From a virus (taxonomy: Duplodnaviria; Caudoviricetes), in the IMG/VR virus record IMGVR_UViG_3300025383_000009: a DNA stretch of 64,000 nucleotides; one strand, given 5' to 3'. The translations under genes were made by a program, and so were the position numbers. This document shows, piece after piece, positions 1,174-31,611 of the stretch (positions are counted from its first letter, which is position 1; every line of letters begins with the position of its first letter). Under the pieces are notes generated by a model. It searched no databases, was not told the DNA's origin, and was given only the letters and a program-made list of their open reading frames with translations.

Positions 1174-1360
1174 TTGTCATCCGTTCTATGATTGTTTCTA
1201 GTTTATTTATTCTTTCTGCAAGATCGTCTATCTTGTTTTCTCTCTCAGCTATAGCGTTTTGTATAGCTCTATGCCTATTTAACTTTACAACATCAGTCTC
1301 TAGGATAGCTCCTGTATTAAGGTCCCTTACTAAAGTCTGGTTTTGTATCTTTGCTCTCAT
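1154..1360 (-). CDS. Small conserved coiled-coil protein
   Basis: 68 aa ORF coupled to both neighbours; heptad-rich C-terminus. Confidence 0.6.
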   Translation of the reverse strand: MRAKIQNQTLVRDLNTGAILETDVVKLNRHRAIQNAIAERENKIDDLAERINKLETIIERMTNDNTNA

Positions 1361-4300
1361 TATGTATCCAATGCAATGATTCTAAGGTTTTGTAGCAATG
1401 GTGTCACTGCTGTATTGCTTGATAATAATACTATCTTGATTTGGAAAGCATTAAACCTTGTTGCAATAGGTGAGTTTTGTGGCACACCATACTGATCAAA
1501 AGCACCAGTTGGGAAGAAACTATACTCTGAGAACTTATAGTTAGATGTTGATGGAGCTGCTGTGCTCTCAAGGTTCATTAGTACCCAATATTCATCAGTG
1601 ATAGGTGTCGTAGCAGAAGTTGGTAGTGTTCTATAGTAACACTTGATACTTGTACCAGCTGGAGCGTTGACATCAACCCTAACGTTTAAGTTTGTTGATT
1701 CAAACCCAGATGCAAGGTTGATAGGTTTACTTACGTATCTTGCAAAGGCTGTACCACCTGCAGATACTCCAGCTTCACCTGATGCATCATTGTTGATCTT
1801 ATTAAGAGCTGTCACTACAGCAACGCTTGATGTATCAATGAATGGAGATACTTGGTCGTTTGTAGTTGTTAGTGTAGCTTGTAACCTTAAGCTTGGAGTG
1901 CCACCGATACCAGCTGCAGCAGCTATCTGTTTCAATGATGGGTAGTCAATGTTTTGACTTAAGTTGATAGATGCCCATGCAGAGTCAAAGGCCGAACCGT
2001 TATATGCTTTTGCAGCCCATGTTAGTGTTGTACCTGTTGGGGTAACAGCCGCGATGTTAGTATATAATGTTTGATAGCTGAGTGCAGATGCAGGGTCTTC
2101 TATATCAAACTCAATGGTACCTGTAGAAGTAAAGCTTGCTCTGTTGATATTAAACATGAGGTCTGAGTTTTGATCAGCAGTCCATGTAGAAGCATTTTGT
2201 GATCTAAATAGAGAACCAATGTATGGTTGTTTATCTATCAACCTTGTACCATTTAATAGTGTTGAACCTACAGTTGCAGTAAACACTTCGTATTGGTTAG
2301 AGTTAGATGATACAACGATAGCATATTCACCAGGAACTAAATGGATAGGGCTTGGGAACATAAAGTTAGTAGCTACTGTTGCAGTATCAGAAACGTTTAC
2401 ATCTTCAGCGTTTAACGTTACAGAAGCAAATGGTATAGTACCAACTGAACTTGGATAACCATTAGCTGTAGTCCTGATCTCTACTGTTACAGGAACTGAA
2501 GTATCTGCAGACTTAAAGTATAAGTCGATAGATGTAACATGCATGCCTTGTGGGTATAATCCAGCATCTACAAGGAATGACTCTGCTGTAGGGTCATAAT
2601 AGTAACCAGTTGTAGTTGTTACTTGTTGGTTTTGTACAGCACGTGTAGTTAACAACGTTGTTTGTTCTTTTTGTAGTAGACCTACAGCTGTATACGTTGC
2701 TTGACCAACAGACTCTTCAAGAGCCATATCGTTTGTATTGTTATCAATTAGTCTGATGACTCTTTGACCTGTTGCAAAAGTATTAGCTGGAACATCAAAC
2801 TCAAATGCAACATTGCCATGTTCATCAGGGACTAATGCATCACCAAGAGCTGGTACAGCACTAACCGCTGTTATTTGTCCATATACACCACTAGATGAAC
2901 CTACAACGTATTGACCATTACTTGGAGTTACAGATGCACCAAATATGTATAGTAGTCTCTTTGTAGGATCAGATGCTAAAGGAGCAGAGAACAACGCTGC
3001 GCTAGCAGTACCTGTCTGTGTACCAGTATAACTTGTATTATGGAAAGTTAATGTCTCATAGTTAGCTGCATCAAACATACCTGTAGCACCATTTACTGTA
3101 AGCACTAGTAATGGTTTAACATACGATGAGATGCTTGTATTATCAAAGAATGGGTATAGACGAGCATTAGGTTTAAACTTGGTACCGACACCGATGATAG
3201 TACTTGGTCTGATATAAGGCACAGATTGAACTGATACAACGCTTGTTCCTAGTGTTGTAGTGCTTGTACTTACTAAGTTTGTATTTACTGTGCTTGATGT
3301 AGAAGTTGTAGCCCAACGCATACCAGGATGAACACCATAGTAACCAGTAACGACTGTATCACTAAGTGATGATGCATCAGGTAATTGGATAGTCACCACG
3401 TCATTTACTGATGGTAACACTGAGGTATCTACCCATTGATCAAATGGAGGGTCTAACTGGATATCACCTACATATCTGATAACATTGAATGGGTTGATGT
3501 TAGTGTATTCACTAGCAAGAGGTTGATTGATAGCTGATGTCTCAGTATATGATAGCGTTGCTATGTCACCTGTAACTTGTGTAGATACAGGATTAGCTGG
3601 AGTAAATTGATGATAGTTAACATCAAATGTTGCTCGTGCGTTTTGGTTATATGGATCAATAGCTACCTTAAAGTCAAGGTCTGCTGCGTTAGCGATTGAG
3701 TTGTTATTATAGTTTGTGGATGCAGAGTTCCATGTATTTGATCCATTGAACCATGCTGCCCACCAACCCCATGACTTCTTATCCCAATCTACTTGTGATG
3801 AAGCATATATGTCTGAGCTTGTAAAAGCATCTACTGCAAAGCCGTTCTTAAACTTCTCAAGGTTTGATGCATCAGTGATTGATGTACCTTGCGCTTGAGA
3901 TTCTAGTAATGATAGTTGTGTGTAGTATTCTAGATTTGCGATACGTTTTTCAAGACCGCCGATGTCATGCATGGTGTATCGTTCGTTGTTGATGTACTCA
4001 ACTTGAATGTCTGATACCTTTGCTGTATATGGAGGTATGACAAGGTTATAGATCGCCATGCTATTACCAATATTTGTGGGCACCGTGGGGTAGACTGCAG
4101 GAATGCCTGATAATACGGTAAGGTTTTTATCTGCCGTAGCAAGGATAGTGTCGATACGTGCAAGGTAATACTGGTATGCTGTAGTTAAACCAGTAGAGCT
4201 AGTTGGGTCTGGTACTTGACCGTTAGTTAATGATGTATCACCATCAGCCCTTCTAGGTCTGAAGTCAATACAATCTCTAAGGTTATACGTTACACCTGAT

Positions 4301-6522
4301 GAAGGGTCTATAAATGTTGGGATGTCTTCGTATGCTACAGGATATGAGTTTACTGCTAAGTATCCATTGCCACTATGACTAAAGTTTTTATATATCACTA
4401 ATAGGTAATTAGTATCTGTAGGTGCCGTACCTGTCAATACTAAGTTACCATGATCATAGATCTCTGAACGCTGACCGTTATCAACTATGTAGTTTGATGT
4501 AACTTCTGTATATGCTACTCCGTTCCAGTCAATAACCATTGTATTACTATCTACGTTAACAGCGGTAGGATTTGTTGAACCAGTGTTATATACAGCATAT
4601 ACTTGATATATGTCTGACACGCTTAGTGTATCTTTACCACCATAAGTTGTATTTAATCCAGATGCAGAACCAGTACCTAAGATAGCTGTAGAGTATCCGC
4701 TTAACCCTTTGGTCTTATATGATTGTGTAGTTAATGTAACTTCTGCGATGATTGTAGCAGTACATGAGAAGCCTGTATCATTAACATTAAATTGTGCCTG
4801 TGAAGCACTACCTGTAGATGATACTACGATCGATCTTGAGTTTGCATCTTCAAATGAGATGATAGACCCTACACTTAAACCTGTGGAACTCGCAGTTAAG
4901 TTTCCTGTGATGACAACATGGTAAGATTTATTCTTTATAGAATCTGTTAGTCCACCACCAAAACCTGTCGTTACGCCATCACCCTCAAAGTTTTCTGTAC
5001 TGTCTTCTGTGTCTATATGTGCAACTCCACCTGAGAAACTTACACCAGTAAATGTTCTTTGGATAGAATAACTGCCGTTTTGTATAGTCTTAACATATTG
5101 GTTAGGTATTGGGAATACTAAACCTGGACTGTCAGAGCCGTATAGGATAGTATTACCAGAACCACCTACTTTACTTGATGCATCGATGTCAGCTGATGAT
5201 GTAGATGTGATGATAGACTTAACGCTCTCAAACTTTTGACCACTATTCATCGTGATGTTGAATAGGTACATCGCATAGACCGCTGAAGTTCCTGGGATAC
5301 CTGAAACTTGCTGTAAGAACCTTACTTGTGCAGTACCGATCTTATATGTTGATCCAGACACTGAAGCAGTCACTACGCTATGTAGTTCTACAGACGTGTA
5401 TGGTACAGTTGAAAGTTCAGTTATCTTTTTATTTGTGACGAATGGACCAACTAAGTTTGTAACGTTTACATAGTTACCGTAGTTTGTATTAACATCTTTA
5501 CTGATTAAACTTGAAGGAGTCCTTGCTCTAGGTACAGACAAAGGCGTTGTACTGATAGTTTCAAATTCATATCCTTGAACATAACCTTTACCAGGACCTA
5601 ATGCGGCAGTGAAGAACCCTGTGGCTCCATCAACTGCATCTGTGATATGAAGAGGCCATACATTAACTGTATAGTTACCTGCTTCATCGAATGTCCTTTG
5701 TGCCATCTCATTGCCGATAGCAGAGTATACAGTGTTAGTTTTATTAACTACTAATGCTCCATCAACTATACGAGCGATCTCCGTGAAACCATCAACAGAG
5801 TCTGTTAAACCTTTTGCTGTTAAAGTTAAGCTTGCATGGTAGCGATCTGCACCAGGAGCTGCATAGTTTGGTGTACCAGTAGCATTATCAAGTAATGATG
5901 TATCTGTGTTTGATGATGCAAAGCTTTCATTGAGTACAAGACCTACTGATGCTGAAGATGTATTGGAGTACGCATCTACTGCAATGGTTTGTGGTTCAAC
6001 ATATACGAACATACCGTTAACAAAGAATACACCTGAATCAATAGAGAATGCCATTGACTTATTGAGTGATGAACCAGTTTGGATAGTTGCTACAGCTGTA
6101 CCTGAGATAGTTAAGTTCTCACCAACAGAAAATGCAGAACCAGAAGTGATTGATACTAATAAGGTTTTAGGTTGTGTAGAAGTAGCGTCTAAGCTTAGCT
6201 TGACTAAAGCTTTAGTACCAGAAGAAGCACCAACGATGGTAGCTCCATTAAATATAGCCATGTTGACAGCATTACCGCCAAATGATGGGTCAATCTTGAT
6301 TGACTGTAGAGTATTTTCAAATAAACGGCTGCAACCAGTAACCACTGTACCGTTAACAAATATATTCTTACCAAACTTGGCTATTTGGTCTTGGATCTGT
6401 GTCTGGAGTTGTGTTAACTCACGGGCTTGGACAGCATATCCAGGTTTAAATAGTATACGATGATAGTTCTTGGTATCATCAAAGTCATCAAAGTATGGAT
6501 TTGTGGTAAAATTAAGTGACAT
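1360..6522 (-). CDS. Large virion structural protein (DUF4815-like)
   Basis: 1720 aa; N-terminus PYFDDFDDTKNYHRILFKPGYAVQARELTQLQT is typical of this family in T4-like phages. Confidence 0.8.
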   Translation of the reverse strand: MSLNFTTNPYFDDFDDTKNYHRILFKPGYAVQARELTQLQTQIQDQIAKFGKNIFVNGTVVTGCSRLFENTLQSIKIDPSFGGNAVNMAIFNGATIVGASSGTKALVKLSLDATSTQPKTLLVSITSGSAFSVGENLTISGTAVATIQTGSSLNKSMAFSIDSGVFFVNGMFVYVEPQTIAVDAYSNTSSASVGLVLNESFASSNTDTSLLDNATGTPNYAAPGADRYHASLTLTAKGLTDSVDGFTEIARIVDGALVVNKTNTVYSAIGNEMAQRTFDEAGNYTVNVWPLHITDAVDGATGFFTAALGPGKGYVQGYEFETISTTPLSVPRARTPSSLISKDVNTNYGNYVNVTNLVGPFVTNKKITELSTVPYTSVELHSVVTASVSGSTYKIGTAQVRFLQQVSGIPGTSAVYAMYLFNITMNSGQKFESVKSIITSTSSADIDASSKVGGSGNTILYGSDSPGLVFPIPNQYVKTIQNGSYSIQRTFTGVSFSGGVAHIDTEDSTENFEGDGVTTGFGGGLTDSIKNKSYHVVITGNLTASSTGLSVGSIISFEDANSRSIVVSSTGSASQAQFNVNDTGFSCTATIIAEVTLTTQSYKTKGLSGYSTAILGTGSASGLNTTYGGKDTLSVSDIYQVYAVYNTGSTNPTAVNVDSNTMVIDWNGVAYTEVTSNYIVDNGQRSEIYDHGNLVLTGTAPTDTNYLLVIYKNFSHSGNGYLAVNSYPVAYEDIPTFIDPSSGVTYNLRDCIDFRPRRADGDTSLTNGQVPDPTSSTGLTTAYQYYLARIDTILATADKNLTVLSGIPAVYPTVPTNIGNSMAIYNLVIPPYTAKVSDIQVEYINNERYTMHDIGGLEKRIANLEYYTQLSLLESQAQGTSITDASNLEKFKNGFAVDAFTSSDIYASSQVDWDKKSWGWWAAWFNGSNTWNSASTNYNNNSIANAADLDFKVAIDPYNQNARATFDVNYHQFTPANPVSTQVTGDIATLSYTETSAINQPLASEYTNINPFNVIRYVGDIQLDPPFDQWVDTSVLPSVNDVVTIQLPDASSLSDTVVTGYYGVHPGMRWATTSTSSTVNTNLVSTSTTTLGTSVVSVQSVPYIRPSTIIGVGTKFKPNARLYPFFDNTSISSYVKPLLVLTVNGATGMFDAANYETLTFHNTSYTGTQTGTASAALFSAPLASDPTKRLLYIFGASVTPSNGQYVVGSSSGVYGQITAVSAVPALGDALVPDEHGNVAFEFDVPANTFATGQRVIRLIDNNTNDMALEESVGQATYTAVGLLQKEQTTLLTTRAVQNQQVTTTTGYYYDPTAESFLVDAGLYPQGMHVTSIDLYFKSADTSVPVTVEIRTTANGYPSSVGTIPFASVTLNAEDVNVSDTATVATNFMFPSPIHLVPGEYAIVVSSNSNQYEVFTATVGSTLLNGTRLIDKQPYIGSLFRSQNASTWTADQNSDLMFNINRASFTSTGTIEFDIEDPASALSYQTLYTNIAAVTPTGTTLTWAAKAYNGSAFDSAWASINLSQNIDYPSLKQIAAAAGIGGTPSLRLQATLTTTNDQVSPFIDTSSVAVVTALNKINNDASGEAGVSAGGTAFARYVSKPINLASGFESTNLNVRVDVNAPAGTSIKCYYRTLPTSATTPITDEYWVLMNLESTAAPSTSNYKFSEYSFFPTGAFDQYGVPQNSPIATRFNAFQIKIVLLSSNTAVTPLLQNLRIIALDT

Positions 6523-13828: not shown

Positions 13829-14113
13829 CTATCCAAAGAATACGTTTTGTGAGCCTTGTGCTACTACAGACCCACAATCTATCGGGTCACCTATACGCAT
13901 AGCAGCTCTTCCATTAATGAATACTTTACTTGATCCTTCTTGTCCTCTCCCATCATGACATATGATGGTACAACAATGTGTTTCCCATAGATCACCTACA
14001 CGTGCAATACCTACACCGTTTGCAAACACGTTGCTAGATCCTTCCATCACAGTACGTGGTGGGAAACAACCATGTCCTGAACAAACATCACCAATCCTAG
14101 TTCCAGCTGCCAT
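13829..14113 (-). CDS. gp5.4: PAAR-domain spike tip protein (T4 gp5.4-like)
   Basis: RIGDVCSGHGCFPP...GSSKVFINGRAAMRIGD; Cys/His metal ligands present. Confidence 0.9.
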   Translation of the reverse strand: MAAGTRIGDVCSGHGCFPPRTVMEGSSNVFANGVGIARVGDLWETHCCTIICHDGRGQEGSSKVFINGRAAMRIGDPIDCGSVVAQGSQNVFFG

Positions 14114-15447
14114 TATGCAATAGTACCATAAGAAGTAACACTTTGTACAGTAGTGAGGTTACCGTTTGAATCAAGCATAGCTACATGTACACCAGTAGTT
14201 CCAGTTAAGTACATGAATATTAGTTGTCCACTTGCACCTTGTAATACAGTCCAATTTGTTGTTCCGAATCCTGGTCCTGTTGGTCCTGATGCACCACCCG
14301 TTGGACCTTGAATACCTGTAGCTCCTGTTAAACCCGATGCACCTTGAGTTCCTGTAGCACCTGTAGCACCTGTTTTACCTGTGGATCCGCTTGCACCTGA
14401 TGCACCACCAGTTGGACCTTGAATACCTGTTGCACCAGGCAAACCTGTAGATCCACTCGAACCTTGAGTTCCTGTAGCACCGCTTGCACCTATTGGTCCT
14501 GTTGAACCAGTAGCTCCTCTACCAGTCGCACCTATTGGTCCTGTTGCACCTGGAATGTTTGATACACCCGCTGGACCTGTAGATCCTGTCGGACCAGTAG
14601 CACCTGATGCACCGCTTGCACCCTGTGGACCTGATGCACCACCTGTATCTCCTTGCGGGCCTGTTGCTCCTGTATAACCTGTCGCTCCTGTCGCACCAGT
14701 ATAACCTGTTGCACCTGTCGAACCAACAGGTCCTGATGCACCACCAGTTGGACCTTGAATACCTGTTGCGCCAGGCAAACCTGTCGCTCCACTTGCACCA
14801 GTAACACCTGTTGCACCTGTATATCCTGTAGCACCGCTTGCACCTTGATAACCTGTAGCACCTGTAGCACCAACACCGCTTGCACCTTGTGGACCTGTAG
14901 ATCCTGTTGAACCTGGTAACCCTGCACCTGTAGCGCCAACACCGCTTGCACCTTGTGGACCCGTAGATCCTGTAGCGCCCGTTAATCCTGCACCTGTCGC
15001 ACCTGTCGAACCTGTTAAGCCCGTCGATCCGCTCGAACCTTGGATACCTGTGGCACCTGTCGAACCTGTTAAACCTGTTGAACCACTCGCACCTTGATAA
15101 CCCGTCGCTCCTGTAGTTCCAGTATAACCTGTGGCACCTTGTGGACCAGTTGCACCTTGTGGACCTGTAACGTTACCTACGTCAACCCATGATGCACCTT
15201 GCCAAACCCATAAGTGACCAGTATTAGTCGTGATGTATCCATCACCTATTGTATTTCCAGTGAGTGGTAGTAATGATGAGTTAGCAACAGAACCTTTAAT
15301 CGTTACTGATTGACCGATAGGACCTTGTGCACCTGTTGCACCTGGAGTTCCTGTAGCTCCTGTGTATCCTGTGGCTCCAGTAGAACCTGTAGAACCTATC
15401 GGTCCTTGTATCGTTCCTGAAGCTAGTTGTTGTAGAGTTATCGTCAT
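14113..15447 (-). CDS. Collagen-like (Gly-X-Y) fibre protein
   Basis: About 300 aa of GAT/GAS/GPQ triplets. Confidence 0.85.
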
Positions 15448-15456
15448 TTATTTTCC

Positions 15457-17079
15457 CTATACATACTCATAGATGATTACTATACCTGAACCACCTTGTC
15501 CGCCCGTTTGATATCCTGGAGTTCCAGCTCCACCACCTCCACCACCGCCTGCAGAACCAGGCCCAGCGTTTCCACCACCGTGTCCACCACCAAACCCGCT
15601 TCCAGATCCGAGGTAACCAGCACCGCCTTCACCACCACCTGTAGTAGAGTATATACCACCGCCACCTGCAGAGCCACCTGATCCAATCAAGTTAACGTCA
15701 CCGCCTGTCGCAGTACCACCAGCACCACCCGCGTTTGTTCCTGCACCGCTGTTACCGTTTGATCCACCTGTACATGTTAGGAAACTACCAAACGTTGTCG
15801 TACCAGCTGGTCCACCCACAGTTATAGCAGTGATAGTAGATAGCACGTTTGACATGATCTTCTTGATCGCCATACCACCTCCACCTCCACCACCTCCACC
15901 ATAGTATGCGGATCCTGCTGTGGTACCGTTTCCACCATTACCGCCTCCACCTACAGTGTGTACTACGATATAACCTGGGTTATTAACCGTCTTATCATAT
16001 CCTGTTGCACCAGCAGTATTGAATGATGTTATACCTATTAAGATACCACTTAAACCTTGTGGGCCTGTCGCTCCACTTGCTCCTGTAATCCCTGTTGCAC
16101 CCGTATAACCAGTCGCTCCTGTAGCTCCTGTAAACCCTGTTGCACCTGATGCACCGTCAATACCTTGTGGACCTGTAGAACCTTGTGGTCCTGTTGCTCC
16201 TTGATAACCAGTAGCACCACTTGCACCTGTGTCTCCTTGAAGACCACTTGCACCTATAGGACCTGTTGCTCCTGTATAACCAGTAGCTCCGCTTGCTCCA
16301 TCTATACCAGTGGCACCGCTCGCGCCTTGGTATCCTGTAGCACCTGTATAACCTGTTGCACCTGTATATCCTGTCGCTCCAGTAGAACCATCATATCCAC
16401 TAGCACCTGTTAACCCGGTAGAACCGCTTGCTCCTTGATAACCAGTGGCACCTTGTGGACCTGTAGCTCCTGTGTAACCTGTCGCACCCGTTGCTCCACT
16501 ATATCCTGTAGCACCTGTTGAACCCGTATAACCTGTCGCACCTGTTGCACCAAACCCTGTAGCACCTGTCGCTCCTGGACCACCCGTTGCACCTGTTGCA
16601 CCAGAAGGACCAACTGTTGATACTACTAACCATTGTGAACCGTCAAAGGTAAAGTATACTAGCACTCTAGCTATGTTGATGAGTAAGTCGTCATCATACC
16701 CATCGATGTTATGTCCATTACGTAGTATGGTTAATGGGTTTTGTTGCCAATTACCACCATCTTGTAATAGTATTGACATACCAGTCGTTGGTGTTGCTGG
16801 TAGTGTTATGCTAAAAGAACCACCGCTTGTATCAGCTATGATCTGGTCATACGCATACAAGGATGGGTCTAATACGATTGAATTCGTAACCCTCTGCCAA
16901 TGTAGACCTGGTTGTACCCAACTCCTTGTACCATCAACGTTTGATGCTAGTACATAGCCGCTGTACGCTGGTAGTCCTAAGTTAGGTTCTGCTTCTGATA
17001 GTTGTAAAAACTCATACCTGTCTGGTGATACACCAGATGGCGGTATGACTTTAACTTTACCAGATAATATTCTAGCCAT
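15457..17079 (-). CDS. Collagen-like fibre protein with C-terminal glycine-rich domain
   Basis: Phage fibre repeat ([15 protein letters not shown]), Gly-X-Y tract, GGGGGGG-rich end. Confidence 0.8.
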
Positions 17080-17403
17080 TTACTGATTCCAAGATACTTA
17101 ATGTTATTTTAAATTTACTGTTATCACTCGCTGATACTGATATTGAGTGACCGGTTTCAAGTACTAGTTTACCCGTAATTGCAGAAGCTGAATCATTGCC
17201 AGGTATAAGAAAGTCTTTGATAAGCTCTGTAGTAGTTGAATTAAATTGATGTGTAAACGTTACTGTGCCAGAAGTACCAGAGACGTTAGCTATCTGCGCC
17301 ATCAATATGATAGATGATTTACCAGCTGGTGCAGTATAGATGACTGTATCAGCTGTGGTTATTTCTGCTGTCGTGGTTTTAAATACGTTTAATGCTATAG
17401 CCA

Positions 17404-17404
<1 letters not shown>
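17072..17404 (-). CDS. Small beta-rich fibre-associated protein
   Basis: 110 aa ORF coupled to the adjacent fibre genes. Confidence 0.6.
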
Positions 17405-20068
<2,664 letters not shown>

Positions 20069-26313: not shown

Positions 26314-26907
26314 ATGGCTACAAAACAACAACTAAGAGATGTATTTGCTAAAAACCAATACGAGTTAAAAGACGCAGCAAAGAGATCTCGTACATGGTTC
26401 CAGCAGCAAGCTAGGTTATTACAGACACAAGCTATAACTCCAAATAAAGTATTAAAGGGAGATGCAAGCGCTAACGTGACTTCTATACAACCTGGAAGCT
26501 TGTACATGTTCTTATATGATCCAAAGACAAAAGACGACCTACCATACTATGACGTGTTTCCTCTTGTATTCCCATATAAGAAGATAGGTAACAAAGGGTT
26601 TATTGGGTTAAACATGCATTATCTACCATACTACCATCGTGTACAGCTATTACAAAGACTGATGGAGTATGCAAGTAATACAAAGATGAATGATACAACA
26701 AAGCTTAAGTATTCATGGAACTTAATAAATGGGGTGTCTAGGTTTAAATGGGCAGAACCATGTATCCACCAGTATCTAAATAGTCATATTAAATCAAATA
26801 TGAGGAAGATATCACCACAAGACTGGACGACAGCTATGCTATTACCTGTAGAGCAGTTTGTAGGTGCAAATAAAGCAACAGTCTGGAAGGACTCAGTAGG
26901 AGCATAA
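26314..26907 (+). CDS. gp2: DNA end protector gp2
   Basis: LYMFLYDPKTKDDLPYYDVFPLV and GLNMHYLP motifs. Confidence 0.92.
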   Translation: MATKQQLRDVFAKNQYELKDAAKRSRTWFQQQARLLQTQAITPNKVLKGDASANVTSIQPGSLYMFLYDPKTKDDLPYYDVFPLVFPYKKIGNKGFIGLNMHYLPYYHRVQLLQRLMEYASNTKMNDTTKLKYSWNLINGVSRFKWAEPCIHQYLNSHIKSNMRKISPQDWTTAMLLPVEQFVGANKATVWKDSVGA

Positions 26908-27584
26908 TGGCTACTTTAAACCAATTCATATCATCTATAGCTAATGAAGGCCTAATGAAGATGTCACGTTTCAACGTGACCTTTACTCCGCCTAATGCTA
27001 TAGCTGATGGTCCTTACTTAAGGGATCTCAGGAAAATATTACTGTACTGTGATACTATCAGCTTACCAGGTTTATCATTAGCTACCACAGAAGCAAAGAC
27101 GTTTGGTGAAATAAGAGAGATGCCATATCAAAAGCTCTTTGAAACTACCAACATGACTTTCTATGTAGATAACGCTATGATAGTTAAACTTCTGTTTGAT
27201 AATTGGATTGGAGCAGTACAAGATCCTGTAACAAGGTCTTTTAATTACTATGATGACTACATAACAGATATGTCAGTAGAAGTATTTGATGTCAATGAAA
27301 ACAGTAGATACACACTAAACATGTATCAGTGTTATCCTAAGGCCATAGGCGCTATACAAATGGACTATCAAAGTAAAGACCTAATGAAAGTAAGCGTTAC
27401 GATGAACTATAAATACTGGACTGCTGTAGGTTCTAAGAGCTCTATAAATGGAGATATATCTCCTGTACCTAATGCATACTTTACTAATTTTAATCAGTTC
27501 CAAACTGGAGTAAATCAAGGCATGCCACCTCCGCCTCCTCCAATACAGAACGTAACTAATACAATACCAACGCCACAATTTTAA
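26907..27584 (+). CDS. gp54: Tail tube initiator, gp54/gp19 family
   Basis: LYCDTISLPG, REMPY, TFYVD and LNMYQCYPKAIGAI motifs. Confidence 0.7.
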   Translation: MATLNQFISSIANEGLMKMSRFNVTFTPPNAIADGPYLRDLRKILLYCDTISLPGLSLATTEAKTFGEIREMPYQKLFETTNMTFYVDNAMIVKLLFDNWIGAVQDPVTRSFNYYDDYITDMSVEVFDVNENSRYTLNMYQCYPKAIGAIQMDYQSKDLMKVSVTMNYKYWTAVGSKSSINGDISPVPNAYFTNFNQFQTGVNQGMPPPPPPIQNVTNTIPTPQF

Positions 27585-27594
27585 GGAGAGAGAA

Positions 27595-28071
27595 ATGGCT
27601 GCAGCAAAAGAAGATTTTATGACCACAAAATGGAGACCGATGATGGCTATGACATACATGGCTACTATCATATTTGACTTCATTGTAGGACCGATCATAT
27701 TCAACGTATTACAATACTGGAATCCAGGTCAGGCAGTTACAAGTTGGACACCACTAACACTACAAGGCGGTGGTCTATATCACCTTGCAATGGGTGCTAT
27801 CCTTGGTATCTCAGCTCTTACACGCGGACAAGAGAAGATCGCTCAAATTAATGCAGGTGCAAATGATCCAGCACCACAAGCTCCTGTGATGAACTTACCA
27901 GTTGGTAATACACCACAACAAACATGGGCACAAGATCCAGTACAACAACAATCAGTACAACAAGCTCCTGTGACAGTTGATGTCTCAGTTGGTGCTCCAC
28001 CTCCAGCATTTGGTGCACCACCAGTTGCAGATCCAACAGTAAGAGCAACACCTACACGTAAGATTACGTAA
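27595..28071 (+). CDS. Putative holin (GTA 3-TM holin family) with Pro/Gln-rich tail
   Basis: KWRPMMAMTYMATIIFDF...LTLQGGGLYHLAMGAILGISA. Confidence 0.7.
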   Translation: MAAAKEDFMTTKWRPMMAMTYMATIIFDFIVGPIIFNVLQYWNPGQAVTSWTPLTLQGGGLYHLAMGAILGISALTRGQEKIAQINAGANDPAPQAPVMNLPVGNTPQQTWAQDPVQQQSVQQAPVTVDVSVGAPPPAFGAPPVADPTVRATPTRKIT

Positions 28072-28086
28072 TATAAAGGTATTATT

Positions 28087-28521
28087 ATGAAAGCTGATGA
28101 AAATTTATCAAAGATTTTTGATGTAGAACCTCTTAAACAGGGTGAAGTTGCAAGCACGGGACAAGAGATTGTCCCAGCTTCAAACAAGATGGAAGAGAAC
28201 GTGGATTATGACTATGACTCAGCTCGTAATAATCTACATAAATTATTGAATCAAGGACAAGATGCATTATATCATGCTTTGGAAATAGCCAAGCAATCTG
28301 AGCATCCAAGAGCCTTTGAGGTTGTAGGTAACTTAATGAAACAGTTAGCTGACACTAATGAACAACTGTTAACACTAAGTGAACGTAAGCAAAAACTAGA
28401 TGCTCCTAAGCAGCAAGATGGAAATGCATCTGGTAAGCAAGTGACGAATAACAACGCGATATTCGTGGGATCTACTTCAGAACTATCTAAAATGATTAAA
28501 AACCTGAATAAAAATGATTAA
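28087..28521 (+). CDS. gp16: Terminase small subunit gp16
   Basis: DYDSARNNL, EHPRAFEV and NNAIFVGSTSEL motifs. Confidence 0.88.
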   Translation: MKADENLSKIFDVEPLKQGEVASTGQEIVPASNKMEENVDYDYDSARNNLHKLLNQGQDALYHALEIAKQSEHPRAFEVVGNLMKQLADTNEQLLTLSERKQKLDAPKQQDGNASGKQVTNNNAIFVGSTSELSKMIKNLNKND

Positions 28522-29086
28522 ACCTACATATCTTTATATTAAACATCATACTATAACTGGAATGAATTATTTCGGTAAAACTACACGAAATGATATTGAT
28601 AAGTATTTAGGATCTGGTAAATATTGGATTAATCATATAAACAAGCATGGTAAAGAGCATGTTATAACTATGTGGGTTTCTGAGCCATTTATTGATAAAA
28701 GCAAATTAATTAAATATGCTAAGCTTATATCAGAAGAATTTAATATAGTTAACTCTGATAAATGGGCAAATTTAAGAGAAGAAAATGGAATTGATGGTGC
28801 ACCTATAGGATACAGTCATTCAGACGAATCTAGAAAAATAATGTCTGAATCACACAAAGGTATTAGTAATAAAATCAGTGATGAAGCAAAAAAGAGAATG
28901 TCAGAAGCACAAAAGAAAAGAATTATTACTAAGGAACACAGAGCTAAAATTGGACTTAGTATATCGCAAAACACAAAGGGCAAATTGAAACCTAAAACAA
29001 TATGTCCAGTATGTGGTGTGACAGGAGGAAACAACGTTATGAAACGTTGGCATTTTAATAATTGTAAAAATAATGTAGGAGAATAG
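28514..29086 (+). mobile_element. Free-standing GIY-YIG homing endonuclease (Seg-like) with NUMOD3 repeats
   Basis: TYLYIKHHTITGMNYFGKT, YLGSG and HSDESRKIMSESHKG; AT-rich relative to neighbours. Confidence 0.85.
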
Positions 29087-29087
29087 T

Positions 29088-29801
29088 ATGGCATTACCAA
29101 TTAATACCACGCCGGTATATACGTTAACGTTACCTTCAACAGGTAAAGATATTAAGTATAGGCCATTTTTAGTAAAAGAAGAGAAAGCATTACTGATCGC
29201 TAATCAATCAGAAGACATTAAGGTCATGGTTGAGTCTCTTAAACAAGTCATCAAGGCTTGTATTAAGGATACAGTAGATGTCAATACATTCTCTACGTTT
29301 GACCTTGAATACGTGTTTACACAGATTCGAGCAAAGTCTGTAGGTGAGATGGTTGACTTGTATCTTAAATGCGATACATGTGAAGATGAAAAAGCAGTAG
29401 CAAAGGTTACTATTGATCTTACTACTCTAACTGTTGAAAAAGATCCAAGTCATACAAATAAGATAGGATTATTTAGTGATGTAGGTGTCATCATGAAATA
29501 TCCTACAGTTGATGTAGTTAATAGATTACAAAACATCGATCAAACCGACATGGATGAAGTATTTTCATTAGTGATTGATTGTATAGATTCAATTTATACA
29601 TCTGACGAGATGTTTTCAACTAAAGATCAGACAAAAGCAGAATTAATGGAGTTCTTAAACAACCTTACTTCTGATCAGTTTGCAAAGATCCAGGCATTCT
29701 TTGAGACTATGCCTAAGTTGCAACACACTATTGATTATACATGCCCGGTATGTAACAAAGAGCATCATAAAGTATTAGAGGGACTCAACAGTTTTTTTTA
29801 A
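29088..29801 (+). CDS. gp26: Baseplate hub assembly protein gp26
   Basis: MALPINTTPVYTLTLPSTGKDIKYRPFLVKEEKALL...CPVCN...LEGLNSFF. Confidence 0.92.
   Translation: MALPINTTPVYTLTLPSTGKDIKYRPFLVKEEKALLIANQSEDIKVMVESLKQVIKACIKDTVDVNTFSTFDLEYVFTQIRAKSVGEMVDLYLKCDTCEDEKAVAKVTIDLTTLTVEKDPSHTNKIGLFSDVGVIMKYPTVDVVNRLQNIDQTDMDEVFSLVIDCIDSIYTSDEMFSTKDQTKAELMEFLNNLTSDQFAKIQAFFETMPKLQHTIDYTCPVCNKEHHKVLEGLNSFF
29792..29798 (+). other. Candidate -1 programmed ribosomal frameshift heptamer T TTT TTT
   Basis: Last two codons of gp26; the -1 frame enters gp51; SD-like GAGG 10 nt upstream. Confidence 0.7.
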
Positions 29802-29980
29802 TTAATCTCTCTCATGAGTCATTGCATAATTACTATAAGATGAATTTTGCACTGATGCAGTATCACCATTATGCACTAAGTGATATAGAAAACATGATAC
29901 CATTTGAGAGAGAAATCTATGTGGCTATGTTGATTAAGTACTTAGAAGAAGAAAAGAAAAGGATAGAGAGTAGAAGGTAA
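29798..29980 (+). CDS. gp51: Baseplate hub assembly catalyst gp51, missed by the ORF track and probably made as a gp26 fusion
   Basis: -1 frame reads LINLSHESLHNYYKMNFALMQYHHYALSDIENMIPFEREIYVAMLIKYLEEEKKRIESRR*; first ATG only at 29840. Confidence 0.85.
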   Translation, partial: LINLSHESLHNYYKMNFALMQYHHYALSDIENMIPFEREIYVAMLIKYLEEEKKRIESRR

Positions 29981-31611
29981 TGGCAAAGAAACAAGATCCT
30001 AGTATGAACTTATCTTATATACTTAAGAAGCAGGAAGAAGAAAAACTTTCTGGCTTAAGTGCTAATGTTGCGTCTCAGTTGACAGAAGCTGGAGTAAATC
30101 CTACAGCTACACCGAAAGAAGCTACTCGACAATCAACTAAAGAAAAGCCAACACCTCAACTTAATATAACTCCAGTATTAACTGAACTAAAATCACTTAA
30201 CAATAATATGTTAAAAGTAGTAAAATCCATGGCAGAAAACAATGGATTACTTAAGACTCTTGTTAAGAATTCTAAGGAAGCTAAGTCATCTAAAAATAAT
30301 CTTACTGAAGATAAACTTGAAGATCAAAACTTTAAAGACAAGTTAATGGATTTAATAATTGGTATCAAAGCTGGTACTGATAAGATTGAGAAGCCTAAGA
30401 AAGGTTTCTTTGATGATTTAGGTAAATGGGCTGCAGGACTTGCTTTAGCTCTTGGTGCACTTATTGGTTGGATTCAAGCTAAAGTTAAGTTCTTGTCTAG
30501 ATTTATCCCAGATAACTTATTAGAATCAGTTAAAAAAAGGTTTGCAAATATTGGTAAGTTCTTTGAAGAACTAATAGCTCCACTTAAAGAAAGATTTGGT
30601 AAAGCATTTGGAAAAATAGCAGCATTCTTTGAACAAACTTTTAGTAAAATTAAGAAGTTACTTAGCTTTGATAAAGAGGCTAGTATTTTTGCAGAACTAG
30701 GTAAAGCTTTTAAAGCGTTCATATCACCATTTAAAAATGCATTTAGGATCTTAAGAGTCTTAGTATCTGGCCCTATAAAAGAAGTTGAAGGCATATTTAG
30801 TGGTATAGCAAAGTTTGTTAAGACATTTAGCGGAGTTATAGGTAAAGTAGCATCAATAATAAAAATTATTGGAGAACCAATCCTAATCATCATGGCTATC
30901 TATGATACGGTAAAAGGTGCAATTGAAGGGTTCAAAAAAGAAGGTATAGTTGGTGCAGTTAAAGGTGCATTAAAAGGATTATTCGATGCAACTATTGGAG
31001 GGTTCTTAGACTTAATTAAAGATATAGGATCTTGGGTACTAGAAAAGATTGGGTTTAAATCAGCTGCTAAGTTTTTAGATTCATTCTCGTTTAAAGATTT
31101 ATACAGTAAATTCTTGGACTTAATGTTTGCCCCAGCAAAATGGTTCCAAGATATGCTATTATCTTTATGGAATACTGTTAAGAGTATACAGATAGGACCA
31201 TTTAGTATATTCGGTAAGAAACTTGGTCCATGGAAACCTTTTGCATCTTTAGGTGGAAGTGATACATCGACACCGTCTGATAATACAAGTGCATCACCAA
31301 CTTCTTCAGAATCATCTGATAATACAAGTGCAACACCTACGCCGACACCTGCGACATCAGTAAGTCCAGCATCAAATAGTGTACAATCATCTGATCTAGC
31401 TCCATCAAGCAGACAAACAGCTGATACTGTTTATACAAGATCTGGAGAAAATGCTGGTATAGCACAAGCTTCTCCAGCTTCAGCACCAGTTTCAGTGGTT
31501 AATGCACCAACGACAATAACAAAACAAACATCTAATAACTTGATTAAGCTCCCGGTACGGGATGAAGATACTACTATCCAGCAGTATTATAGATCAAGGT
31601 TCGCATATTAA
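29980..31611 (+). CDS. Tape-measure-like protein (gp29 position)
   Basis: 543 aa, alpha-helical with F/K/G repeats; follows gp26/gp51; TAATG coupling. Confidence 0.7.
   Translation: MAKKQDPSMNLSYILKKQEEEKLSGLSANVASQLTEAGVNPTATPKEATRQSTKEKPTPQLNITPVLTELKSLNNNMLKVVKSMAENNGLLKTLVKNSKEAKSSKNNLTEDKLEDQNFKDKLMDLIIGIKAGTDKIEKPKKGFFDDLGKWAAGLALALGALIGWIQAKVKFLSRFIPDNLLESVKKRFANIGKFFEELIAPLKERFGKAFGKIAAFFEQTFSKIKKLLSFDKEASIFAELGKAFKAFISPFKNAFRILRVLVSGPIKEVEGIFSGIAKFVKTFSGVIGKVASIIKIIGEPILIIMAIYDTVKGAIEGFKKEGIVGAVKGALKGLFDATIGGFLDLIKDIGSWVLEKIGFKSAAKFLDSFSFKDLYSKFLDLMFAPAKWFQDMLLSLWNTVKSIQIGPFSIFGKKLGPWKPFASLGGSDTSTPSDNTSASPTSSESSDNTSATPTPTPATSVSPASNSVQSSDLAPSSRQTADTVYTRSGENAGIAQASPASAPVSVVNAPTTITKQTSNNLIKLPVRDEDTTIQQYYRSRFAY

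What the first reader, a model, noticed from the sequence alone, without database searches (positions are those of the whole stretch)
29771..29980. Predicted -1 frameshift fuses gp26 to gp51 right before the tape measure, as in lambda G/GT-H
gp26 ends AGT TTT TTT TAA, giving the heptamer T TTT TTT at 29792-29798. The -1 frame is open only from 29771 and continues LINLSHESLHNYYKMNFALMQYHH...ESRR*. The gp51-like SHESLxNYY segment lies upstream of the first ATG (29840), which has no obvious RBS. An SD-like GAGG (29778-29781) sits 10 nt before the heptamer, the spacing known to stimulate -1 shifting in dnaX. Predicted products are 237 aa and about 297 aa. The order short chaperone, frameshift extension, tape measure matches the conserved tail-chaperone frameshift of lambda, P2 and Mu. 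In T4 itself genes 26 and 51 are divergent, and I am not aware of this recoding being described for T4-like myoviruses. It would imply that gp26/gp51 are tail assembly chaperone equivalents.
Basis: partly seen in the sequence, partly recalled or inferred. Interest (0 to 1): 0.85.

Follow-up and report, generated by a model that had tools for sequence, protein, structure and literature searches.

The report
Frameshift joins gp26 to gp51
This freshwater T4-like phage most likely makes a short and a long form of a tail-assembly chaperone from one gene by letting ribosomes slip back one base on a run of U's; the signal is real and strongly conserved, but the idea appears to have been published in 2022.

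Summary
The gp26-like gene (29088-29801, Pfam PF12322) ends AGT TTT TTT TAA. The gp51-like domain lies in the -1 frame, open from 29771, and its conserved start lies upstream of any in-frame ATG.

In 121 of 121 related loci the gp51 domain is in the -1 frame. Of 36 clusters at 60% identity, 35 keep a T_TTT_TTY/A heptamer. The codon before it always ends in T, and the spacing to the gp51 domain never varies. Fifteen clusters have no start codon at all.

An upstream GAG codon, giving GAGG, is strongly over-used, as in dnaX. T4 and Aeromonas gp51 (249 aa, one ORF) align without a break across the predicted junction. Phages with a separate gp51 have no T-run at the end of gene 26.

Independent metagenome assemblies confirm the T8 run. 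The N-terminal domain's only structural matches with Z of 5 or more are tail assembly chaperones (HK97 TAC, YqbN).

Vladimirov, Gautam and Davidson (Virology 2022) identified the T4-like chaperone genes. I could not read that paper and know it only through two citing papers. This scan has also reported the same slip in at least 20 other genomes.

Verdict: a real, unannotated new member of a known kind. No protein or RNA data exist to confirm the slip.

The parts
29088..29801 (+). gp26-like gene, the short chaperone form (TAC-N), 237 aa. It has a CxxC...CxxC zinc-ribbon-like motif.
   Evidence: PF12322 E 1.4e-65 and phrog_150 E 9.5e-69. It is the only copy in the window.
29778..29783 (+). Shine-Dalgarno-like GAGGGA, 10 nt upstream of the heptamer (Glu-Gly codons of the LEGL motif).
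   Evidence: Sequence. At this Glu codon GAG is used 18 of 25 times, against 22% elsewhere in the same genes (binomial P 1.4e-7).
29792..29798 (+). Slippery heptamer T_TTT_TTT (U8 run 29792-29799 when the stop's T is counted).
   Evidence: A heptamer T_TTT_TT[T/C/A] is present in 35 of 36 clusters at 60% identity. The preceding codon always ends in T (log10 P -8.6). The first Phe codon is always TTT (P 3e-7).
29799..29801 (+). Zero-frame stop TAA, directly after the heptamer.
   Evidence: The stop lies 0-2 codons after the heptamer in 34 of 35 clusters.
29798..29980 (+). The -1 frame extension (60 codons plus stop), the gp51-like C-terminal domain of the long form (297 aa in all).
   Evidence: phrog_634 E 5.6e-26. 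It is colinear with the C-termini of T4 and Aes012 gp51 and of 32 single-ORF long forms. It is modelled as a helical unit with pLDDT of 90 or more.
29980..31611 (+). Probable tape measure protein (543 aa). Its ATG overlaps the stop of the extension (TAATG).
   Evidence: Weak hits to six PHROG tape-measure families (E 2e-8 to 1.6e-3). Its position matches annotated tape-measure genes in Cr30. BLASTP finds no similarity to T4 gp29, so the identity is inferred.
26907..27584 (+). Tail-tube-family gene upstream (context: tube, chaperone, tape measure order).
   Evidence: phrog_45 'tail tube' E 2.4e-38 and Pfam Phage_TTP_2. It directly precedes gp26 in C48C1, phiN3 and Vibrio D527. Here it is separated from gp26 by three inserted genes.

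Best explanation
One gene yields two proteins.
- Most ribosomes translate the gp26-like ORF, stop at TAA (29799-29801) and make the 237-aa short form.
- A minority slip back one base on U_UUU_UUU (29792-29798).
- The slip happens with the two Phe-tRNAs in the P and A sites, or with the P-site tRNA alone while the stop codon waits in the A site.
- These ribosomes read on in the -1 frame to 29980 and make a 297-aa long form whose last 60 residues are the gp51 domain.
- The GAGG 10 nt upstream probably pairs with the anti-Shine-Dalgarno of the translating ribosome and promotes the slip, as in E. coli dnaX. The adjacent stop codon probably adds a pause.

The two forms would act as the tail assembly chaperone pair (TAC-N and TAC-NC) for the tape measure encoded immediately downstream. 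This is the role lambda G and GT play. T4 itself encodes the same two forms as separate paralogous genes, 26 and 51.

Shown here:
- the sequence signal and its conservation;
- the synonymous-site constraint;
- colinearity with single-ORF gp51;
- the absence of the signal where gp51 is a separate gene.

Inferred:
- that the slip is ribosomal;
- its efficiency;
- the chaperone function.
For: Frame conservation:
- The gp51 domain is in the -1 frame in 121 of 121 loci, with gp26 identity down to 34%.
- The same holds in Vibrio D527, Caulobacter Cr30, Sinorhizobium phiN3 and S-CRM01.

Heptamer and start codons:
- The heptamer is present in 35 of 36 clusters.
- The linker length never varies.
- Fifteen of 35 clusters have no ATG, GTG or TTG before the conserved YY, and 10 have only GTG or TTG.

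Synonymous constraint:
- The preceding codon varies (AGT, TCT, AAT, GAT, GCT, ACT) but always ends in T (log10 P -8.6).
- The first Phe codon is always TTT (P 3e-7).
- GAG is enriched at the SD-like site (P 1.4e-7).

Colinearity with single-ORF long forms:
- BLASTP of the fusion against Aes012 gp51 gives E 1e-12 and against T4 gp51 E 2e-7. Both run straight across the junction.
- Aes012 gp51 contains PF12322 (E 2e-45) plus the phrog_634 C-terminal part.
- Thirty-two single-ORF long forms align without a break across the junction.

Natural control:
- Five T4-type lineages with a separate gp51 have no T-run longer than 3 at the end of gene 26. T4 reads GAG TTC TTT there.

Other support:
- The T8 run is confirmed in four independent assemblies.
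- The fusion model has pLDDT 90.6 and pTM 0.82.
- The only PDB chains with Z of 5 or more are chaperone-type: 3fgx, HK97 TAC 2ob9 and YqbN 3klu.
- Leiman et al. 2010 list gp26 and gp51 as hub assembly chaperones.
- Sullivan et al. 2010 noted the unexplained truncation of cyanophage gp51.
Against: - There is no protein, ribosome-profiling or RNA evidence, and only DNA runs hold this phage.
- The window clade has no convincing downstream hairpin (z about -1 and +1). Hairpins are not conserved across the family (mean z -0.9).
- U8 is long enough for some transcriptional slippage.
- In 10 of 35 clusters, mostly cyanophages, an ATG sits just after the stop, so a separate small gp51 could also be made there.
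- The title of Vladimirov et al. [quoted passage not shown]
- The fold matches to chaperones are modest (Z 6-7), a range the tool warns can be unspecific.
Confidence: 0.74

Rival explanations
1. Transcriptional slippage. RNA polymerase stutters on the T8 template run and adds one U to a fraction of mRNAs. Ordinary translation of those mRNAs then gives the same 297-aa fusion.
For: - The window clade has 8 consecutive T's.
- Homopolymer runs are the known substrate of this mechanism (established knowledge: Thermus dnaX, IS elements, Shigella mxiE).
- The title of Vladimirov et al. [quoted passage not shown]
Against: - Seventy-seven of 121 loci have only 6 T's followed by C, and the run is not lengthened although TTT would be synonymous.
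- Two lineages keep the heptamer as U_UUU_UUA with Phe changed to Leu. This is a classical ribosomal slip site.
- The upstream GAGG shows codon-level selection, which has no role in polymerase slippage.
- Known efficient sites usually have 9 or more identical bases.
Confidence: 0.13
2. Two separate proteins. gp51 is a free peptide of about 45-60 aa, started on its own or by termination-reinitiation after gp26 (here at TTG 29822 or ATG 29840). No fusion is made.
For: - This is how databases annotate it.
- Cyanophages have ATG 2 nt after the stop, and L032 has TAATG with no canonical heptamer.
- Ten of 35 clusters have an ATG in the right place.
Against: - In the window the conserved LSHESLHNYY segment lies upstream of both candidate starts.
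- Fifteen of 35 clusters have no start codon at all, for example L023 and L033, which have no Met in the whole extension.
- Independent starts would not fix the frame, the linker length, the heptamer or the T-ending wobble base in every lineage.
- T4-type gp51 shows that the domain functions fused to a gp26-like body.
- Several GenBank records could not call the gene at all.
Confidence: 0.08
3. Artefact or decay. The T-run length is a sequencing or assembly error, or a recent frameshift mutation, in what is really one in-frame gene of about 297 aa.
For: Homopolymers are error-prone, and single-ORF long forms exist in other phages.
Against: - Four independent assemblies at depth up to 215 have no indel.
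- The best 120 homologues are 232-243 aa long, consistent with the same stop.
- All 121 loci share the same frame break.
- A word search with the C-terminal region found no in-frame fusion.
Confidence: 0.01

Closest known systems
T4 gp26 and gp51 (hub assembly chaperones), identified as the tail assembly chaperones of T4-like phages by Vladimirov, Gautam and Davidson 2022 (Virology 566:9-15)
   Same: - Same protein family (PF12322).
- The window's short form corresponds to gp26, and the predicted long form is colinear with gp51 over its whole length.
   Different: - T4 and its close relatives encode the two forms as separate, divergently transcribed paralogous genes with no T-run.
- Here one gene plus a -1 shift gives both forms.
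- I know the 2022 paper only from its title and two citing papers.
Lambda gpG/gpGT and the conserved -1 frameshift in tail assembly chaperone genes of long-tailed phages (Levin, Hendrix and Casjens 1993; Xu, Hendrix and Duda 2004)
   Same: - A short and a long form are made from overlapping ORFs by a -1 slip at an X_XXY_YYZ heptamer near the end of the first ORF.
- The gene lies directly upstream of the tape measure gene and downstream of a tube-family gene.
- The arrangement is conserved while the sequence diverges.
- The N-terminal domain resembles HK97 TAC in fold (Z 6.0).
   Different: - HMMER finds no sequence similarity.
- The protein is about twice the size of gpG and has a zinc-ribbon-like insert.
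- The heptamer is U-only rather than G_GGA_AAG.
- The zero-frame stop is adjacent to the heptamer.
- T4 genetics places the proteins in hub assembly.
E. coli dnaX -1 frameshift (A_AAA_AAG with an upstream Shine-Dalgarno-like stimulator and a downstream hairpin)
   Same: An internal SD-like GAGG lies about 10 nt 5' of the heptamer and is supported by synonymous codon bias.
   Different: No conserved downstream hairpin in the window clade. Here the shift lengthens the product, whereas in dnaX it shortens it.
HIV-1 gag-pol slippery site U_UUU_UUA
   Same: Same class of U-rich heptamer. Two related lineages (L025, L026) have exactly U_UUU_UUA.
   Different: The HIV-1 site is eukaryotic and has a downstream stem-loop. 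The protein systems are unrelated.

Membership tests
Tail assembly chaperone -1 frameshift system (lambda G/GT type) | Second ORF in the -1 frame, overlapping the end of the first and lacking its own start signal. | tested here: met
   The -1 frame is open from 29771, and the conserved domain starts before any in-frame ATG. The domain is in the -1 frame in 121 of 121 loci, and 15 of 35 clusters have no start codon.
Tail assembly chaperone -1 frameshift system (lambda G/GT type) | [quoted passage not shown] | tested here: met
   T_TTT_TTT at 29792-29798. Present in 35 of 36 clusters, with synonymous-site constraint. Absent where gp51 is a separate gene.
Tail assembly chaperone -1 frameshift system (lambda G/GT type) | Position between the tail tube gene and the tape measure gene. 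| tested here: inconclusive
   - A tape-measure-like ORF starts at the extension's stop, but its identity rests on weak PHROG hits, with no similarity to T4 gp29.
- The tube-family gene is upstream but separated from gp26 by holin-like, small terminase and homing endonuclease genes.
- In C48C1, phiN3 and D527 the tube gene is adjacent to gp26.
Tail assembly chaperone -1 frameshift system (lambda G/GT type) | Chaperone fold of the N-terminal domain. | tested here: inconclusive
   In an all-against-48,161-chain search, the only chains with Z of 5 or more are 3fgx (6.9), HK97 TAC 2ob9 (6.0) and YqbN 3klu (5.8), over residues of about 1-94. Z below 8 can be unspecific. Foldseek against the PDB found nothing, and HMMER found no link.
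Tail assembly chaperone -1 frameshift system (lambda G/GT type) | Both protein forms are made in infected cells, and the long form is essential. | not testable with these tools
   No RNA or protein data exist; only DNA metagenome runs hold this phage.
PF12322 T4_baseplate (gp26/gp51 family) | HMM match above the curated cut-off. | tested here: met
   221.5 bits against a cut-off of 24.5.
PF12322 T4_baseplate (gp26/gp51 family) | The long form is colinear with T4-type gp51, including its C-terminal domain. | tested here: met
   BLASTP E 1e-12 (Aes012) and 2e-7 (T4), both across the junction. Alignment A3 of 33 sequences agrees.
dnaX-type stimulated -1 frameshift | Upstream SD-like element about 10-14 nt from the heptamer. 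| tested here: met
   GAGG at 29778-29781. GAG is used 18 of 25 times against 22% background, P 1.4e-7.
dnaX-type stimulated -1 frameshift | Stable downstream hairpin 5-8 nt after the heptamer. | tested here: not met
   The window z-scores are -1.1 and +0.97. There is no covariation in the clade. Strong hairpins occur only in some other lineages, such as L001, L026 and L106.
Transcriptional slippage site | Long homopolymer (typically 9 or more), with indel-bearing transcripts. | tested here: inconclusive
   The run is 8 here but only 6 in 77 of 121 relatives. Transcripts could not be examined.

The most novel reading that the evidence does not exclude
The 2022 paper may have established only that T4 has two separate chaperone genes. 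In that case the following would be new:
- A ribosomal -1 frameshift is the ancestral and near-universal way the whole PF12322 family makes its long form.
- That family covers cyanophages, freshwater and marine T4-like phages, vibriophages, rhizobiophages and jumbo phages.
- The shift is stimulated by an internal Shine-Dalgarno-like GAGG.
- The heptamer is lost exactly where gene duplication replaced it.
It would also correct hundreds of database annotations of 'gp51'.
Probability: 0.25. Interest if true: 0.6.

Novelty: new member of a known kind. Interest (0 to 1): 0.35.

Why it matters
- It explains an old oddity: cyanophage and marine-phage gp51 is only about 20% of the length of T4 gp51 (Sullivan et al. 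2010). The missing 200 residues are supplied by gp26 through the shift.
- It ties the T4 hub-assembly proteins gp26 and gp51 to the universal chaperone-plus-tape-measure logic of long-tailed phages.
- It gives a natural before-and-after pair for how a recoding signal is replaced by gene duplication.
- It shows a systematic annotation error. In public genomes the extension is called as a tiny separate gene, called from an internal TTG, or not called at all.
- For this window it is a routine but unannotated instance.

Tried and rejected
- Word-based search for in-frame fusions using the C-terminal region found none. Single-ORF long forms were found only by a full HMMER search started from an Aeromonas-phage gp51.
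- A first alignment mixing the full fusion with gp26 and extension fragments was misaligned. I dropped it (A2).
- Foldseek against the PDB gave no match with E of 0.001 or less. The BFVD, AlphaFold DB cluster and ESM Atlas searches returned only the same family.
- Sequence profiles did not link the family to known chaperone families or to solved structures.
- A stem pairing AGAGGGA with UCUCUCU around the slip site is the minimum-energy fold. It is no better than shuffles (z +0.97) and does not covary in relatives, so I rejected it.
- Downstream hairpins occur in some lineages but are not a family-wide feature.
- Complex prediction of gp26 with the tape-measure-like protein gave no answer (score 0.00). 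This is neither support nor evidence against binding.
- BLASTP of the downstream ORF against T4 gp29 found no significant similarity.
- The window's own assembly is not held, so I could not search the whole genome for a second copy. Within the 64-kb window there is one copy only.
- No RNA runs hold this phage.
- The primary 2022 paper could not be opened by DOI or PubMed id.

Full report
**The observation**

- An ORF at 29088-29801 encodes 237 aa and ends AGT TTT TTT TAA.
- With the T of the stop codon, the run is eight T's (29792-29799). The in-phase heptamer T_TTT_TTT is at 29792-29798.
- The -1 frame has a stop at 29768-29770. It is then open to the stop at 29978-29980.
- After a -1 slip the reading is ...SFF-LINLSHESLHNYYKMNF..., 60 further codons, giving 297 aa.
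- GAGG lies at 29778-29781. The first in-frame ATG of the -1 frame is at 29840, after the conserved SHESLHNYY segment.
- The next ORF (29980-31611) starts on the last base of the extension's stop (TAATG).

**Identities**

- The upstream ORF matches Pfam PF12322 T4_baseplate (E 1.4e-65) and phrog_150 'baseplate hub'.
- The -1 peptide matches phrog_634 'baseplate hub assembly catalyst' (E 5.6e-26). It also matches the C-terminal 54 positions of the phrog_150 profile. That second match was the first hint that some family members carry both parts in one chain.
- The downstream 543-aa ORF gives only weak hits to several tape-measure PHROGs. BLASTP finds no similarity to T4 gp29. Its role is therefore inferred from position.
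- The surrounding genes form a T4-like baseplate and tail cluster: gp5, gp6, gp48, gp2, a tube-family protein and gp32.
- The phage is an uncultured freshwater myovirus, found in many freshwater metagenomes. Its nearest cultured relatives are cyanophages, at about 67% DNA identity over short stretches.

**Not an error**

- Contigs from four independent runs span the T-run without any indel. They differ from the window at one or two SNPs elsewhere, so they are separate strains or assemblies.
- Of more than 7,800 homologues, the best 120 are 232-243 aa long.

**Conservation**

I collected 121 loci that hold both parts, from GenBank phages and IMG/VR.
- In all 121 the gp51 domain is in the -1 frame of gp26.
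- After clustering gp26 at 60% identity (36 clusters), 35 have T_TTT_TTT, T_TTT_TTC or T_TTT_TTA within 0-2 codons of the stop. One of these has the stop 8 codons on.
- The distance from the heptamer to the conserved gp51 motif never changes.
- Fifteen clusters have no ATG, GTG or TTG anywhere in the -1 frame before the conserved YY. Ten have only GTG or TTG, and ten have an ATG.
- The one exception (L032) reads GAT CTT TTT ACG TAATG and may use coupled reinitiation.

**Synonymous-site evidence**

- The codon before the two Phe codons varies (AGT, TCT, AAT, GAT, GCT, ACT) but always ends in T. About 55-60% would be expected from usage in the same genes (log10 P = -8.6 for 35 clusters).
- The first Phe codon is always TTT, against 65% expected (P 3e-7).
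- These probabilities ignore shared ancestry. However, the codons themselves differ between lineages, so the T was kept through repeated substitutions.
- Twelve bases upstream, the Glu codon of the LEGL motif is GAG in 18 of 25 clusters, against 22% GAG elsewhere in these genes (P 1.4e-7). This creates GAGG(G) at the spacing that stimulates -1 shifting in dnaX.
- That bias makes sense for a ribosomal mechanism and not for polymerase slippage.

**The link to T4**

- In Aeromonas phage Aes012 and in T4, genes 26 and 51 are divergent.
- Their gp51 (249 aa, one ORF) carries PF12322 over residues 2-198 plus the phrog_634 C-terminal part.
- It aligns with the window's predicted fusion from end to end, straight across the junction and with the same linker length (E 1e-12 and 2e-7).
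- The N-terminal part of T4 gp51 is also similar to T4 gp26 (E 2e-6).
- A full HMMER search found further single-ORF long forms of 236-319 aa. All are colinear with the fusion.
- So the fused architecture exists as a normal protein, and T4 has a short and a long paralogue.
- As a natural control, five distinct T4-type lineages have no T-run longer than three at the end of gene 26. T4 keeps the Phe-Phe but spells it GAG TTC TTT.
- The slip signal is thus present where the long form is not separately encoded, and absent where it is.

**Structure**

- With alignment A3 the fusion folds confidently (pLDDT 90.6, pTM 0.82). The extension forms three helices with pLDDT of 90 or more.
- Foldseek finds nothing in the PDB.
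- An exhaustive alignment to 48,161 chains gives only three with Z of 5 or more. All cover the first 90 or so residues: 3fgx (Z 6.9), HK97 tail assembly chaperone 2ob9 (Z 6.0) and B. subtilis YqbN 3klu (Z 5.8).
- From my own knowledge, not tested here, YqbN sits in the chaperone position of a PBSX-like prophage.
- These Z values are modest. The agreement of the top hits is suggestive, not proof.

**Mechanism and rivals**

- I put about 0.74 on ribosomal -1 frameshifting.
- I put about 0.13 on transcriptional slippage as the main route. It is plausible for U8, but most relatives have U6 followed by C, and two have U_UUU_UUA.
- I put about 0.08 on a free, separately started gp51.
- I put about 0.01 on an artefact.
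- That a fusion is made by some recoding route I hold at about 0.9.
- No conserved RNA structure accompanies the site in the window clade.

**What is known**

- Leiman et al. 2010 list gp26 and gp51 as hub assembly chaperones (PMC3004832).
- Sullivan et al. 2010 noted, without explanation, that cyanophage and marine vibriophage gp51 lack the first 200 or so residues (PMC3037559).
- My first literature searches found nothing on a frameshift.
- PRFect summarises that paper as saying some T4-like phages carry a short gene and a fused long gene.
- A 2025 paper (PMC12846349) cites it for poly-T slippery sequences in TAC-N genes of T4-like phages.
- I could not open the paper itself. The concept nevertheless appears to be published.
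- This scan has also reported the same slip in at least 20 other genomes. Those notes agree with my tests, but at least one said no publication had been found.

**Verdict**

The finding is real, well supported by comparative evidence, and unannotated in databases. It is a further member of a described kind, not a new kind.

Noticed in passing
window 28514-29086 (+): A homing-endonuclease-like ORF (NUMOD3 motif, phrog_314 E 4.6e-18) is wedged between the small terminase gene (28087-28521) and gp26. Its ends abut or overlap both neighbours. It looks like a mobile insertion into the late operon.
   Followed up: no
window 27595-28521 (+): A holin-like 3-TM ORF (weak PF11351 and phrog_3427 hits) and a gp16-like small terminase gene sit between the tube-family gene and gp26. 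In C48C1, phiN3 and Vibrio D527 the tube gene directly precedes gp26.
   Followed up: partly
L034, L035, L036, L037 (S-SSM4, P-RSM1, S-CAM1, ACG-2014d); L003 (C48C1) 2585-2689: In four GenBank cyanophage records the gp51 region is an unannotated gap of about 190 nt between gp26 and the next gene. In C48C1 it is called from an internal TTG as a 34-aa protein. This is a systematic annotation gap caused by the missing start codon.
   Followed up: yes
L032 about 3160-3180: This is the one locus without a canonical heptamer (GAT CTT TTT ACG TAATG). An ATG overlaps the stop, so this lineage may use coupled reinitiation or a single-tRNA slip on U_UUU.
   Followed up: partly
L001 2600-2640 and L026 about 1213-1240: Strong hairpins start 5 nt after the heptamer in P-SSM2 (11 bp, burying the annotated gp51 ATG in the stem; z -2.9) and in L026 (8 bp, z -5.2). 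Such hairpins are absent in the window clade.
   Followed up: partly
window 14113-19875 (-): Three consecutive ORFs (444, 540 and 823 aa) share collagen-like or tail-fibre repeat families (phrog_5073, 6320, 8745). They look like a paralogous fibre gene set.
   Followed up: no
window 1360-6522 (-): A very large ORF (1,720 aa) matches only PHROGs of unknown function (phrog_358, phrog_877). It sits next to baseplate wedge genes.
   Followed up: no
window 29517 and 29866: Strain SNPs (G>A and C>T) occur in independent freshwater metagenome assemblies. The phage is widespread in freshwater samples from 2016-2017, at depth up to 215.
   Followed up: partly
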